25,290 bases of DNA. Origin: a virus (lineage: Duplodnaviria; Caudoviricetes). Shown piece by piece: positions 1 through 25,257 of the stretch (the stretch's first letter is position 1; each line of letters starts with the position of its first letter). The notes under the pieces are model-generated. The model did no database searches, was not told where the DNA came from, and worked only from the letters and a program-made list of their open reading frames with translations. Position numbers and translations under genes: made by a program. Location: the IMG/VR virus record IMGVR_UViG_3300045902_000573, positions 1-25,290 of that record. One strand, written 5' to 3'.

Positions 1-1067
1 AACCACCTTTCTTTCCAATACGTTATTAAATCGTTGTTTGAGTAGTCTATAAATTCGGGTTTATCTGTCTGCATAGTCAAAAACTCTTTCCAATTTTTAA
101 GCAAGGGGGTCATATAGTATGCTCGTTTCCAACCAATACTTAAAATATCTTCGTTTGGGAAACCTAAATTAGATAATCCTACTCTTAAAGTTCTAAGTTT
201 CCAATTAGAACCTTTTCCGTATTTGTAGCTTGCAAATCTTTCTTGCGGTACAAATTCTTTTATCAGTTCCCAACTTCCGTTGGCAGTTATATGAATATGA
301 CTTTTCCCTTGTGTATAGCCTAAAAATTGCCAATTTAAAAGTCTTGTGTAAATGGCTGATTTTTCAAATGCCCCAAAAGTGTCAATCATAGCTAAAACGG
401 GCATTTTTTGTTTACCTGCTATAATCGTTGTTTTGCCTTCATACTTTTGTTTAAATGTTTCTCTTACTTCGGGAAACATAGTCGTTAAAGCCACCAACTT
501 AGAGCCTAAAATTGTATTGTATGGCGGAACTGCACCTAAAATATAGGCAGTTAAGCAACTGTATAATCTTTCTTGTTTTTGTTCTCTGGTCCAACCTATG
601 TATTCATCTCTTACATTGAACCCAATTAGTGGGTCGCAAAGTCCAAAAAGCCCAATAACTTTGTGATTTTGCTTGTCAAATACCAAAAAACGAATACGCC
701 TGCCATAACCAGCACTTACAGGAACAGACCAAAAACTAAGACAATAAGCCCAGATTTTGTTAGTCATATTATTTTCTTGAACTTCTACAAGGTAAGGTTC
801 TACCTTGTATAAGTCTATTTCATCAGGTCTGGCAAAATAATATTTTACTTTACTTTCATATTGTTTGCCGTTTTGGTTAGTAACAAGGGAAAGTTTCTTT
901 TGAGTCAGACGAGCATCTTTTACTTCTAACCTTTTCATATCTTCGTCCCATTCTATGCCATAATCGGACAAATTTTGCAAAAGTTTCTCCCTTGCTTTTG
1001 CTACCTTGACAGATTGCAAAATCTCACAAAGTAATTGATTTTTAATATTTTGCTCATTATCAATCAT
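1..1067 (-). CDS. druA: DUF4338 / Druantia DruA-like protein (3' end runs off the window)
   Basis: Absent from the ORF track. Translated by hand from ATG at 1067 (MIDNEQNIKNQLL...), open to the window edge (~355 codons). Contains FARPDEID..VEPYLV, WSVPVSAGYGRRIRFLVFD, IGLFGLCDP..VRDEYIGW, AYILGAVPPYNTILGSKLVA, SAIYTRL..LGYTQG, GSNWKLR and YWKERW, matching the DruA motif series as I recall it. Confidence 0.85.
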   Translation of the reverse strand, partial: MIDNEQNIKNQLLCEILQSVKVAKAREKLLQNLSDYGIEWDEDMKRLEVKDARLTQKKLSLVTNQNGKQYESKVKYYFARPDEIDLYKVEPYLVEVQENNMTNKIWAYCLSFWSVPVSAGYGRRIRFLVFDKQNHKVIGLFGLCDPLIGFNVRDEYIGWTREQKQERLYSCLTAYILGAVPPYNTILGSKLVALTTMFPEVRETFKQKYEGKTTIIAGKQKMPVLAMIDTFGAFEKSAIYTRLLNWQFLGYTQGKSHIHITANGSWELIKEFVPQERFASYKYGKGSNWKLRTLRVGLSNLGFPNEDILSIGWKRAYYMTPLLKNWKEFLTMQTDKPEFIDYSNNDLITYWKERW

Positions 1068-21963: not shown

Positions 21964-21996
21964 TGAATGTGTGCCCACAAAACATCGGAAGCAATT

Positions 21997-22164
21997 ATGA
22001 ATAAAAACAATAAATATAGTAACTTTATCAAAACAAGAGTTACAACTAATAAAAAAGAAGCGTTTAGAGTTCACGCAGAAAAAAAAGGTTTTGCGATGAG
22101 CACACTTCTAAAAAAATTGATGGATAAAGATATGAAAGAAAATATTATCCCACCGAATTTTTAA
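21997..22164 (+). CDS. Ribbon-helix-helix DNA-binding protein
   Basis: FIKTRVTTNKKEAFRVHAEKKGFAMSTLLKKLM is a strand-helix-helix pattern. ATG 21997 is preferred because 21967 lies too close to the -7 box. Confidence 0.65.
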   Translation: MNKNNKYSNFIKTRVTTNKKEAFRVHAEKKGFAMSTLLKKLMDKDMKENIIPPNF

Positions 22165-22190
22165 CGTTTAACACTTTAAATTTTACAAAT

Positions 22191-22406
22191 ATGGCAAAAT
22201 TAACAAACGCAAAAATCGAGAGAAACAAAGATGATAATTTCAAAGACACTATCTACATTCAGTACAACGAAAGCACAAATACAGATGAAGTGCAATCCTT
22301 ACAATCGCTGAAAGCAAAGCTACAGGACCCCGCAAATCAGCCAAAAATCACCATTTACGACGTTTCTGACACGATTACATTTGAGATAACGTGGCAGACA
22401 CCTTAA
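22191..22406 (+). CDS. Hypothetical protein, 71 aa
   Basis: ATG ORF with an A-rich leader in the plus-strand island. Confidence 0.65.
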   Translation: MAKLTNAKIERNKDDNFKDTIYIQYNESTNTDEVQSLQSLKAKLQDPANQPKITIYDVSDTITFEITWQTP

Positions 22407-22423
22407 TAAAAATATGAAAAATA

Positions 22424-22777
22424 ATGAAACTTGTAAGGCAAATTACAGAAACAATAGCTGTCTTAGTTGAAAATGATATATTGAATAACTTTGATAAAGA
22501 AGCGTTCAACAATCAAGCTTGGGGACCTCGCAAACGCGAGGACAGGCAACAAGGACGGCGTGCTTTACTTGTAAAAACAGGGCAGATGAAGCGTGGAATT
22601 AGTGTAAGAGTTGAGGGCAAACTAATTGCTGTGTATTCAGATATGAATTATGCAATATATCACAATGAAGGCACAGATAAAATCCCGAAAAGGCAGTTTG
22701 TTGGCTTTACAGATGAATTAGAAAAGCAAATAGACAAAGAAGTAGATGCTATTTTAGAAAAATTTTTCTCTGAATAG
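22424..22777 (+). CDS. Phage virion morphogenesis protein (Mu gpG-like)
   Basis: AWGPRK...RRALLVKTGQMKRGI, SDMNYAIYHNEG and IPKRQFVG motifs. Confidence 0.85.
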   Translation: MKLVRQITETIAVLVENDILNNFDKEAFNNQAWGPRKREDRQQGRRALLVKTGQMKRGISVRVEGKLIAVYSDMNYAIYHNEGTDKIPKRQFVGFTDELEKQIDKEVDAILEKFFSE

Positions 22778-22798: not shown

Positions 22799-22827
22799 AA
22801 AGAAACCCCTCATTGAGGGGCTTTTTT
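22799..22827. terminator. Terminator between convergent genes
   Basis: CCCCTC-att-GAGGGG-c-TTTTTT with an A-rich 5' flank. Confidence 0.65.
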
Positions 22828-22877: not shown

Positions 22878-23708
22878 TTACTCGCTTTTATTAAGAATTT
22901 CATTGATTTTTGATTTTTCTTCATCTGAAACGTCAAAATAAGTGTGTTTCTCAGGGAAAACAACGCCTTTTTTTGCAGTATTTGCCCAAAACATTGAAGG
23001 CATATCATTTTTAATTTTAGTCATTTCTTCGCTGCTTACTTCTTTGCCTGACGTGCCTTTCTTTACTCTTTTGACCGTACAACGACAATTCCAACCATTC
23101 GGAGGATAAAAAGTATCCCAGAAAGGCGAGTCGACAGGTTCCACGATGCCGTTCAATTTGCTGTGGTCGGCTCTTGTTCTGTCATCTTTTACAGCTACGT
23201 ATTGCAAATCAAACAAATCTTTTGTTTCATCAAAAATTTGCCATTTTTTAGCCATCTGAGAACTTGCAACGGCGTGGTTATATTCAGCTTTTAGGTAGTT
23301 TAGATTGTAATTGTTGTTAAGAGAAATGACATCTTTTTGAAATGTATCAAAAGACTTTAAAGCACCGTTCTTATCCACAAGCAAATTCGTAACTTCTTTT
23401 AGTTCTCTGTAAGACTTAAAACCTGAAAAATATTGAATATCTGACAGAAGTTTATCAACGAGCTCTTTTTCACTGCTTGAAATAACATTGTCAAAAACTT
23501 CTCTGACAGCTTTTGAAATCTCTTTCTTTGTTAAATTCGTCAAACTTCTTATGATTTGTTCAAAAGAAAATATGTCTATTTTTTCTTTTTTCTTGAAAAA
23601 CTCATAAGCCTCGTATGCAAACTTTTGAAGCAGGGCAAGAAAATCATCTAAGATGTTGAGCTTAACAAACTGCCCTTCATTTGTTAAGCTCTGGCGAAAG
23701 GGTAGCCA
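22878..23708 (-). CDS. Minor head protein (Mu gpF / SPP1 gp7 family), probably reached by -1 frameshift from the portal
   Basis: YLKAEYNHAVASSQMA.KW, LQYVAVKDDRTRADH..LNG and FWDTFYPPNGWNCRCTV. The frame is open 55 codons upstream of the TTG at 23543, back to 23708, with no ATG/GTG/TTG in that stretch. Confidence 0.85.
   Translation of the reverse strand, partial: WLPFRQSLTNEGQFVKLNILDDFLALLQKFAYEAYEFFKKKEKIDIFSFEQIIRSLTNLTKKEISKAVREVFDNVISSSEKELVDKLLSDIQYFSGFKSYRELKEVTNLLVDKNGALKSFDTFQKDVISLNNNYNLNYLKAEYNHAVASSQMAKKWQIFDETKDLFDLQYVAVKDDRTRADHSKLNGIVEPVDSPFWDTFYPPNGWNCRCTVKRVKKGTSGKEVSSEEMTKIKNDMPSMFWANTAKKGVVFPEKHTYFDVSDEEKSKINEILNKSE
23632..23702 (-). other. Putative programmed -1 frameshift signal
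   Basis: Heptamer C CCT TTC (23702-23696), 4-nt spacer, perfect 12-bp stem (23691-23680 / 23669-23658), loop AGGGCAG complementary to TTGCCCT (23638-23632). Confidence 0.75.
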
Positions 23709-24856
23709 TCATCGTCATCACAGCATTTTAAATTCAAGTTATTTTCATTTGCAGTTGTTTGAGGCGTGGTTTCTTTCAAATTTCTGCGTTCGTGAAAAAA
23801 CTCAAATTCAAACTTAAATTCATCAATGCCTTTATACGCACGCCCTTGCTTTGCCAAGAATTTAAGGACCTTGCTATTTATTTCATATTCAATATACTTC
23901 ATATCGGACTCCACCCACCAATCTAATTTTCGTTCTTGCACTTCTGCCGAACCTACGTAAGATTTTTGCTCCATTGTCGCCGTTTGTCCTACAAGCGACT
24001 TTGCTATTTGCGTATCGTTAAAATCAATGAACATTTTAAACGTATCAACATTTGTGCTTGCTGTTGCGTTTAATGCTCCAATTTCGTCGCTATCATCGAA
24101 AACGCTAAATCCGTTCCTGCCAAAGTTGTCTAATAATTCATAATACGCTTGCTTGTCTTTTGCACTTGTTTTTACGTACCGATGTGGCATACCGAACTTT
24201 TCATTGTACTTTGCCCAATCAGAAACCGTAAAATTCTTATACATTACCCGTTTGGCAGGTCTTACAAGTAAGCCCAAACTCTGATAATTGCCGTCTATTT
24301 TGCCGAACTCGAGCACTAAGCTGAATTTATCTAAACTTTCGCCTTCTAAATCTCCGTAGGGGTCTCTTAAATAGACCCTACGGCGTGGATTGATGTTTTG
24401 TCTCGGAATTTTTGTAAATGTTGTAAATTCATTATTTGCAAAAAAATCTGCATAATCAAACTGTATCGTTGTATAACCCCAAGCCTTCGTCTCTACAATA
24501 GCGTAAAGCAACTCTAAAAACCAACTTTTTTGGATAATTTGCGTTGCTTCTTCGTTCTTATTGCCGTTTTTATCATATAAAGCAAAATTCTCAGCAACCG
24601 AACCGCTAAACCGTGTTTCAAGTGAACTGAAAACAACGTCATCTAAAATGGCGTTGTCGTATAAGTCGTAAAGAGGCACAAAGTTGTAATAAGGAGCTGT
24701 AAAACAGCTTTCAATCGCATTTTTCCAATCCGATAGTCCTACGTCTGTACGGTAGATTTTCTGCATCGTCCAGACGTTATTCTCAAACATTTTCATTTGT
24801 TGTTCTGTTTGTTTGAGCTCTTTTCTACTGCCAAAAAGTTTTTGAAAAATATTCAT
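23684..24856 (-). CDS. Portal protein (DUF935 / Mu gp29 family)
   Basis: LYDLYDNAILDD, AWGYTTIQ, LGLL, DWAKYNEKFGMP, QIAKSLVGQTAT and SYVGSAEVQE motifs. Confidence 0.9.
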   Translation of the reverse strand: MNIFQKLFGSRKELKQTEQQMKMFENNVWTMQKIYRTDVGLSDWKNAIESCFTAPYYNFVPLYDLYDNAILDDVVFSSLETRFSGSVAENFALYDKNGNKNEEATQIIQKSWFLELLYAIVETKAWGYTTIQFDYADFFANNEFTTFTKIPRQNINPRRRVYLRDPYGDLEGESLDKFSLVLEFGKIDGNYQSLGLLVRPAKRVMYKNFTVSDWAKYNEKFGMPHRYVKTSAKDKQAYYELLDNFGRNGFSVFDDSDEIGALNATASTNVDTFKMFIDFNDTQIAKSLVGQTATMEQKSYVGSAEVQERKLDWWVESDMKYIEYEINSKVLKFLAKQGRAYKGIDEFKFEFEFFHERRNLKETTPQTTANENNLNLKCCDDDDGYPFARA

Positions 24857-25257
24857 ACGTTTCTTTGTTCTACTTTGTTGAATAAAATTGCTTTTGCTTC
24901 GCTATTGTCTGCTAATACACGTTTTTTGCTTTCAATCGGCTGTTTGCCGTCAGAAATACGCTCCAACAACGCAATAGTTTCCGTGTAATCCATTAAATCA
25001 TCAGGCTTCTTGCGATTTGGCAGGCGTTTCCAGACGTTTCTTAAAGCAATAGAGATACAGCAATGCACGACTACTAAATCTCTATCATCGCCTCGTTTTG
25101 AAAAAATGTCATCTACATCATATAAAGTGCCCAAATAGCTTCGAATAAGAGCTATTGCAGAAGTTATTGCAGTTTGCAAGTCTATTGCACTGATGATGTC
25201 GTCTAAGTGCTCATCTTTTACGAATACTAACAAATCGTCTCTTGTAATGAATGACAT
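24853..25257 (-). CDS. Head-tail adaptor (Mu gp36 / DUF1320 family)
   Basis: MSFITRDDL, SAIALIRSYL...YDVDDIF, SIAL, DY..TIALLERISDGK; 4-bp overlap with the portal start. Confidence 0.85.
   Translation of the reverse strand: MSFITRDDLLVFVKDEHLDDIISAIDLQTAITSAIALIRSYLGTLYDVDDIFSKRGDDRDLVVVHCCISIALRNVWKRLPNRKKPDDLMDYTETIALLERISDGKQPIESKKRVLADNSEAKAILFNKVEQRNV

What the first reader, a model, noticed from the sequence alone, without database searches (positions are those of the whole stretch)
22878..23711. Programmed -1 frameshift fusing the portal to minor head protein gpF
Seen on the minus strand: the portal ends GGC TAC CCT TTC GCC AGA GCT TAA. C CCT TTC (23702-23696) is a perfect X XXY YYZ heptamer in the right phase (Pro CCT to CCC, Phe TTC to TTT). 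The gpF frame is the -1 frame; it opens two codons before the heptamer (TGA at 23711-23709) and has no ATG/GTG/TTG for 55 codons. Four nt downstream is a perfect 12-bp stem GAGCTTAACAAA/TTTGTTAAGCTC containing the portal stop. Its loop AGGGCAG can pair with TTGCCCT (23638-23632), forming an H-type pseudoknot. Predicted products are a 390-aa portal and a ~659-aa portal-gpF fusion. Known: SPP1 gp7, the gpF homologue, binds the portal in only a few copies, and phage frameshifts are described mainly for tail chaperones, capsids and tail tubes. Inference: recoding sets a sub-stoichiometric number of gpF domains covalently tethered to the portal ring. I do not know of this being described.
Basis: partly seen in the sequence, partly recalled or inferred. 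Interest (0 to 1): 0.9.

Follow-up and report, generated by a model that had tools for sequence, protein, structure and literature searches.

The report
Ribosome slip fuses portal to MuF
At the end of this hot-spring phage's portal gene, a slippery sequence and an RNA hairpin, kept at the same spot in dozens of distant Bacteroidota phages, very likely make some ribosomes slip back one base so that the next head protein (MuF) is made as a tail on part of the portal subunits, a recoding event I found in no paper.

Summary
Confirmed. The heptamer C CCT TTC (23702-23696) is in phase, a 12/13-bp stem follows, the MuF (gpF) frame is -1 with no usual start for 55 codons, and independent assemblies show no indel. 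In 48 of 62 portal clusters (70% identity) the MuF frame is -1 with an in-phase X XXY YYZ within three codons of the portal stop (controls 1% and 4%), mostly T TTT TTC, followed after 5-6 nt by a covarying stem. The start-less stretch is under purifying selection and holds a confidently predicted MuF helix. Cultured hankyphage has the signal. Single-ORF portal-MuF genes keep heptamer and stem with the polarity inverted (5 of 5 loci), so both products seem selected. Best reading: programmed -1 ribosomal frameshifting gives a 390-aa portal and a 659-aa portal-MuF fusion (about 0.88). Not shown: translation, efficiency, that the fusion is the minor product. The pseudoknot is plausible here only, not general. 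Nine literature searches found no report; this scan noted the same event before on other genomes.

The parts
23684..24856 (-). Portal gene (Portal_Mu/DUF935), 390 aa, zero-frame product
   Evidence: ORF; PF06074 E 1.4e-47; phrog_113; profile hits solved portals 9khx, 8rka
23696..23702 (-). Slippery heptamer C CCT TTC (Pro-Phe codons), predicted -1 slip site
   Evidence: unchanged in L002 and in contigs of runs X2, X4, X6; homologous position holds T TTT TTC / A AAT TTT / A AAT TTA in relatives
23692..23695 (-). 4-nt spacer GCCA (relatives: 5-6 nt)
23658..23691 (-). Stimulatory stem-loop: 5' arm 23691-23679, loop 23678-23671, 3' arm 23670-23658; 13 bp; contains the portal stop
   Evidence: fold; innermost pair U.G / U-A / C-G in three strains; covarying stem at the same place in relatives
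23684..23686 (-). Portal stop TAA, inside the 5' arm
23632..23637 (-). TGCCCT, possible partner of loop bases AGGGCA (23676-23671): 6-bp second stem of an H-type pseudoknot; lineage-specific, unproven
   Evidence: 3 of 312 control windows and 2.1% of shuffles give 6 bp; both strands unchanged in L002 and X6; not enriched in other clusters
22878..23708 (-). MuF/gpF frame (-1 to portal), 276 codons stop to stop; 272 codons follow the slip; no C-terminal toxin domain
   Evidence: PF04233 at residues 125-212 (about 23336-23073)
23586..23651 (-). First predicted MuF helix (residues 20-41 of the frame), upstream of any ATG/GTG/TTG
   Evidence: AlphaFold model, pLDDT about 96; aligns with natural fusions L119 and L120 from residue 11 and 23
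23541..23543 (-). TTG, first usual start codon of the MuF frame (rival independent start); falls inside predicted helix 46-71
24853..25257 (-). Mu gp36-like head-tail adaptor gene, overlapping the portal start
22803..22823 (-). Terminator-like hairpin after MuF, usable in both directions (neck gene 22424-22777 converges on it)
   Evidence: PF05069

Best explanation
This is very likely a programmed -1 ribosomal frameshift: ribosomes that reach the in-phase heptamer C CCU UUC at the end of the portal gene are likely paused by the 13-bp stem just downstream, a fraction would slip to CCC UUU and read on in the MuF frame, so one transcript is predicted to give the 390-aa portal and a 659-aa portal-MuF fusion. 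Shown in sequence: the signal, its phase, its conservation, covariation of the stem, selection on the start-less MuF stretch. Inferred: the slip itself; that this is the main or only route to MuF here; that both forms co-assemble in the portal ring so that a set number of MuF domains hangs inside the head on a flexible linker, doing covalently what SPP1 gp7 does by binding gp6; that the fusion is the minor form in this phage (about 0.65).
For:: 48 of 62 portal clusters (70% identity) are -1 with a strict in-phase heptamer within 3 codons of the stop, 5 more with an A-rich heptamer further up; controls 53 of 5454 internal windows and 21 of 494 other ORF ends. 41 of 41 portals ending FFx* use T TTT TTY (40 TTC) against 3 of 24 internal FF pairs; stem of 8 bp or more starting 3-8 nt after the heptamer in 32 of 48, control 66 of 1219; 38 of the 45 stems of 6 bp or more start at 5-6 nt; 16 gap-free junctions, 95% of cells paired, 12 double-sided changes, 0 of 500 shuffles, slid controls 33-57%; arms swap G-C for C-G between lineages; in 24 disjoint pairs, substitutions before the first ATG fall 283/158/127 on codon positions 3/1/2 of the -1 frame, 125 synonymous to 49 not; before any ATG/GTG/TTG 31 to 17; window against L002, 4 synonymous and 1 conservative change in the 51 start-less codons; near-cognate CTG and ATC there are lost in L002 and X6. 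TTG start would delete helix 20-41 and cut helix 46-71; the DNA motif alone finds portal stops in 116 of 120 viral loci; 5 of 5 single-ORF fusions found by homology keep heptamer and stem in the linker. Heptamers C CCT TTC, A AAT TTT, A AAT TTA have runs too short for polymerase slippage, and the stem lies downstream.
Against: No translation data. The closest divergent relative (P0123, 73%, ending YPFGKA) is known only as protein, so C CCT TTC was checked only in strains at about 95% identity. TTG 23543 has A at -3, -6, -12 and -13 (motif recalled), as do 3 of 12 predicted starts in the window. 14 of 48 clusters have an ATG/GTG/TTG within 15 codons of the slip, and hankyphage has an ATG at the portal stop, so a second route may coexist. 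The spacer (4 nt) is shorter than in relatives. Some relatives make MuF from its own ATG with no signal (L004, L039, L143, L077, FPSV-S1, lotta8-1). Clusters are related, so counts overstate independent events; 2 of the 48 are partial portals that may duplicate another cluster.
Confidence: 0.88

Rival explanations
1. MuF is made from its own weak start (TTG 23543 or a near-cognate codon, perhaps by re-initiation after the portal stop); the hairpin would tune that start and the heptamer would be incidental or a relic.
For: A-rich context of the TTG; weak sigma-70-like match 23578-23551, within chance (11 found, 7.4 +/- 3.0 expected); own-ATG relatives exist.
Against: TTG product lacks the helix with which own-ATG and fused homologues begin; upstream codons are under selection in the -1 frame; synonymous choice T TTT TTY in 41 of 41 has no role in initiation; first starts in relatives scatter from 2 to 114 codons after the slip.
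Confidence: 0.07
2. The fusion is made by transcriptional slippage (RNA polymerase adds one base in the run), not by the ribosome.
For: Most relatives have a T6 run; some lineages have A8-A9 runs (L059, L097, L141, Peternella_1, fF4), where polymerase slippage is plausible.
Against: The window's site has runs of only 3; A AAT TTT and A AAT TTA variants fit tandem tRNA slippage; all sites are in codon phase; the conserved stem lies downstream, not yet transcribed when the polymerase is at the run.
Confidence: 0.03
3. Assembly error or a pseudogenising indel in a simple fused gene.
For: In-frame fusions exist among the nearest relatives (L119, L120); one contig (L290) has a seventh T that fuses the frames.
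Against: L002 aligns over 2404 bases at 95% with no gap; contigs of runs X2, X4, X6 show no indel; 141 of 197 loci share the -1 overlap.
Confidence: 0.01

Closest known systems
Tail assembly chaperone G/GT -1 frameshift of lambda and most long-tailed phages (Xu, Hendrix and Duda 2004, seen only as a citation; SPP1 17.5/17.5* at UUUUUUC, passage in PMC6316719)
   Same: -1 slip on an X XXY YYZ heptamer near the end of a late gene gives a short product and a C-terminally extended one in fixed ratio; the same UUUUUUC heptamer.
   Different: Here the gene is the portal, the extension is a whole separate head protein family (MuF), and a downstream stem is conserved.
Frameshift-extended capsid and tail-tube proteins (SPP1 gp17.1/gp17.1*, +1, passage in PMC6316719; T7 gp10A/B recalled)
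   Same: Recoding puts an extra domain on a fraction of the subunits of a virion oligomer.
   Different: Those extensions decorate the outside of capsid or tail; here the oligomer is the portal and the cargo is inferred to sit inside the head.
SPP1 gp7 / MuF family and MuF polymorphic toxins (passages in PMC5576092, PMC6316719, PMC11699363)
   Same: PF04233 gene directly after the portal; few copies per head, targeted through the portal.
   Different: gp7 is a separate protein that binds gp6; here the link is predicted to be covalent. The window's MuF has no toxin domain; 15 of 48 signal-bearing relatives have CdiA_C- or Gln_amidase-type tails.
Single-ORF portal-MuF fusions (Microbacterium EA3/EA5/EA8 and EB, passage in PMC7302621; phrog_35074; P. 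gingivalis phages)
   Same: Same domain order in one chain.
   Different: Described as plain fusions; the Bacteroidota ones examined here keep a slip signal in the linker whose -1 frame stops after 6-32 codons.
E. coli dnaX tau/gamma -1 frameshift (recalled)
   Same: Heptamer plus 3' stem; matches the inverted relatives, where the slip would give the short form.
   Different: Host replication gene; in the window the slip gives the long form.

Membership tests
Programmed -1 ribosomal frameshift site | In-phase X XXY YYZ heptamer | tested here: met
Programmed -1 ribosomal frameshift site | Downstream ORF in the -1 frame, open across the heptamer | tested here: met
Programmed -1 ribosomal frameshift site | 3' stimulatory structure a few bases downstream, conserved by covariation | tested here: met
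   spacer 4 nt in the window, 5-6 nt in relatives
Programmed -1 ribosomal frameshift site | Signal conserved beyond protein need | tested here: met
   41 of 41 against 3 of 24
Programmed -1 ribosomal frameshift site | Trans-frame product shown by reporter, profiling or mass spectrometry | not testable with these tools
   no RNA holder listed; published hankyphage table not discriminating
H-type pseudoknot stimulator | Loop pairs with downstream bases, conserved with covariation | tested here: inconclusive
   6 bp, about 1-2% by chance, unchanged in near-identical strains; 2 of 27 other clusters against 29 of 513; no Rfam match
Portal_Mu / DUF935 portal | PF06074 above the gathering score, between gp36-like adaptor and MuF | tested here: met
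MuF1 / SPP1 gp7 family | PF04233 above the gathering score, directly after the portal | tested here: met
   (58.2 bits, cut-off 29.6)
MuF polymorphic toxin | C-terminal toxin domain and adjacent immunity gene | tested here: not met
   frame ends 64 residues after PF04233, no further family
Tail assembly chaperone G/GT frameshift | Site between major tail and tape measure genes | tested here: not met
   site lies in the head module; works like it, is not a member

The most novel reading that the evidence does not exclude
Bacteroidota Mu-like phages use a frameshift as a dial that loads a set number of MuF domains, and in relatives their toxin or effector tails, covalently onto the portal ring. 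The dial runs in both polarities (slip gives the fusion, or slip gives the free portal) and has flipped more than once, so a mixed portal ring of short and MuF-tailed subunits is the selected product, and many annotated MuF genes, hankyphage's among them, have no true start of their own.
Probability: 0.6. Interest if true: 0.85.

Novelty: new variant of a known kind. Interest (0 to 1): 0.75.

Why it matters
It would add the portal to the short list of recoded phage structural genes, offer a testable answer to how a few MuF copies reach the head, imply hetero-oligomeric portal rings, and change the annotation of MuF genes (about 1000 stored viral stretches hold just one form of the motif, an estimate), including toxin-tailed MuFs of gut Bacteroidales. 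A cultured, inducible phage with the signal (hankyphage) makes it directly testable.

Tried and rejected
Single-sequence portal scan of viral contigs found only L001/L002. The metagenome scan for the 73% relative found nothing, so the pseudoknot could not be tested for covariation. No RNA holder listed. Hankyphage capsid mass spectrometry (PMC12135933 S6 Table): MuF (3 peptides; portal 20) appears in the 250-85 kDa slice where a 940-aa fusion would run, but so do small proteins such as Gam and the head-tail adaptor, so it says nothing. Intrinsic terminator reading of the stem rejected: the T run precedes the hairpin and the scan lists no site there. Rfam: no match. MuF: no solved relative by sequence or Foldseek. 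The tree is the quick version only; the window's portal has a long branch and groups with fused L119/L120 at support 83, too weak for an order of events. Early stops in the -1 frame of fused genes are expected by chance and were not counted as evidence. No complex prediction was run. The Bxa locus was not examined. Rows dropped before the 62-cluster count: L001 (duplicate), 20 loci without a portal in the flank, 11 clusters from the single-sequence search (L006-L037), a separate clade mostly with +1 overlap and no signal.

Full report
Setting. The window is a whole 25,290-base contig of a tailed phage: DnaB, YqaJ and endolysin genes, tape measure, capsid, protease, and at its end a Mu-type head block read on the minus strand: gp36-like adaptor, portal (PF06074), MuF (PF04233). 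Runs holding it are hot-spring and mat metagenomes, one of which may be its source. The best named relatives are Cytophagales and other Bacteroidota, so the host is inferred to be Bacteroidota.

Observation. L002 matches over 2404 bases at 95% without a gap, and contigs of runs X2, X4 and X6 (one sample) show no indel, so it is no assembly error. The innermost stem pair reads U.G, U-A and C-G in three strains (the last at depth 3.6), which makes the stem 13 bp and the possible second stem 6 bp.

Relatives. Of 197 loci (196 fetched through MuF homology plus the window) 141 have MuF in the -1 frame overlapping the portal end, 28 in +1, 3 fused, 5 with a gap, 20 without a portal in the flank. After clustering portals at 70% and keeping the 62 clusters of the Bacteroidota-type clade (my label; 11 clusters of a separate clade left out), 48 have a strict in-phase heptamer within three codons of the stop, 5 an A-rich one further up, 3 are fused, 4 overlap without a heptamer (own ATG), 2 look broken. 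Control rates are 53 of 5454 internal windows and 21 of 494 other ORF ends. Portals ending FFx* use T TTT TTC in 40 and T TTT TTT in 1 of 41; internal FF pairs do so in 0 and 3 of 24. A AAT TTT, A AAT TTA and the window's C CCT TTC change the peptide but keep X XXY YYZ. The window's portal is only 20-33% identical to these, so the arrangement is old or recurrent. In the reverse test, the DNA motif alone returned 120 viral loci; in 116 its stop is a portal stop, and 77 of the 80 with long flanks also have MuF in the -1 frame.

Structure. An unbroken stem of 8 bp or more starts 3-8 nt after the heptamer in 32 of 48 clusters against 66 of 1219 control positions; 38 of the 45 stems of 6 bp or more start at 5-6 nt. 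Arms differ wholesale between lineages. On 16 junctions chosen for equal loop length, 95% of cells pair, with 12 double-sided changes, beyond all 500 shuffles and all slid controls; the structure was read from these sequences, which favours it. A second stem is not enriched elsewhere (2 of 27 against 29 of 513), so the pseudoknot is at most a local feature (about 1-2% by chance in the window).

The start-less stretch is coding. In 24 disjoint pairs, changes before the first ATG are biased to third positions of the -1 frame (283 against 158 and 127) and to synonymous (125 to 49); before any ATG/GTG/TTG 31 to 17. Window against L002: 4 synonymous, 1 Ile-Val in 51 codons. The model (mean pLDDT 91.5) has a disordered first 13 residues, then helix 20-41 and helix 46-71, which the TTG would delete and cut; natural fusions align from residue 11 and 23. 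Against this, the TTG sits in an A-rich context of the kind I recall for Bacteroidota starts, and 14 of 48 clusters have a usual start within 15 codons.

Cultured phages. Hankyphage and Elizabethkingia phage TCUEAP3 carry T TTT TTC, 6 nt, stem; Peternella_1 and fF4 have A-rich heptamers with -1 overlap and weaker structure; FPSV-S1 and lotta8-1 use their own ATG; P. gingivalis phage007a has one 853-aa ORF. None of these 7 records is annotated as frameshifted. Hankyphage also has an ATG at the portal stop.

Inverted polarity. All 5 fused loci found by homology (L119, L120, L140, L322, L420) keep an in-phase heptamer and a stem in the linker, often with Ser where the stop usually stands; their -1 frame closes after 12-30 codons. 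A scan for that motif gave 29 portal/MuF loci among 95: 18 of the usual polarity with a later stop and 11 fused; together 11 clusters at 70%, 5 at 50%. Among 35 fused proteins, 27 have FF, NF[RQP], KKK or KKN in the 60 residues before MuF, against 11 of 169 and 20 of 180 control stretches (pattern chosen after viewing the linkers). I infer that these genes make the free portal by slipping, as dnaX makes gamma (recalled), and that both forms are needed. It also means the minor status of the fusion is not guaranteed.

Mechanism. Shown: signal, phase, conservation, covariation, selection. Inferred: tandem slip of Pro and Phe tRNAs from CCU UUC to CCC UUU while the ribosome meets the stem; mixed portal rings; MuF held inside the head and used early in infection, as SPP1 gp7, which binds gp6, occurs in one to two copies and raises infectivity (passages in PMC5576092 and PMC6316719). 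15 of 48 signal-bearing MuF frames carry CdiA_C (9, two under the cut-off) or Gln_amidase (6) tails and 6 carry LPD3, so in relatives the slip would also meter effector load; the window's MuF has none.

Literature. Nine searches listed no paper on a portal frameshift. Passages read by term search: PMC8008677, PMC3711429, PMC5576092, PMC11699363, PMC5009743 (first 300,000 of 449,034 characters), PMC10367356, PMC7302621, PMC2628397, PMC6316719, PMC5512222, PMC7761591; PMC12135933 passages, methods section 34 and S6 Table. None mentions it; plain portal-MuF fusions are described (PMC7302621, PMC5512222). Cluster lists in the supplements of PMC3711429 were not seen and could bear on novelty; subscription journals are mostly outside the library. 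Earlier notes of this scan report the same event, in both polarities, on other genomes; none matches this portal by sequence. They are not independent support; I had reached both readings before seeing them.

Verdict. Real, conserved, very probably a programmed -1 frameshift; a known mechanism at a gene where I find it undescribed. Interest 0.75.

Noticed in passing
L119:513-3053, L120:646-3159, L140:2552-5260, L322:1076-3637, L420: Single-ORF portal-MuF genes keep heptamer and stem in the linker: inverted polarity, slip would give the short portal.
   Followed up: yes
L324:2204-2252 (hankyphage): T TTT TTC, 6-nt spacer and GC stem 13 codons before the portal stop; annotated MuF start lies downstream; an in-frame ATG also overlaps the stop.
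   Followed up: partly
L059, L092, L097, L141, L166, L003, L318, L323: Lineages with A8-A9 runs at the -1 overlap, weaker structure; ribosomal or transcriptional slippage not told apart.
   Followed up: partly
L290: A seventh T fuses portal and MuF in frame; natural mutation or homopolymer error.
   Followed up: no
L002:3203-3663: The 95% relative has about 460 extra bases after MuF holding an ORF of about 150 aa that the window lacks; unknown, immunity- or moron-like position.
   Followed up: no
window 3-1067 (-): DruA (Druantia) family match, E 2e-60, cut by the contig end, inside a phage early region.
   Followed up: no
window 22881-23708 (-): MuF folds confidently (pLDDT 91.5) but has no solved relative by sequence or Foldseek.
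   Followed up: partly
window 23711-23730 (-) and many relatives: Cys-rich motifs (CC, CxxC with His) sit at the junction: at the portal end here, at the MuF start in relatives; possible metal site.
   Followed up: no
window 21967-22777 (+): Three small genes, among them the Mu gpG-like neck gene, run opposite to the rest of the head module; no transposase or terminase on the contig.
   Followed up: no
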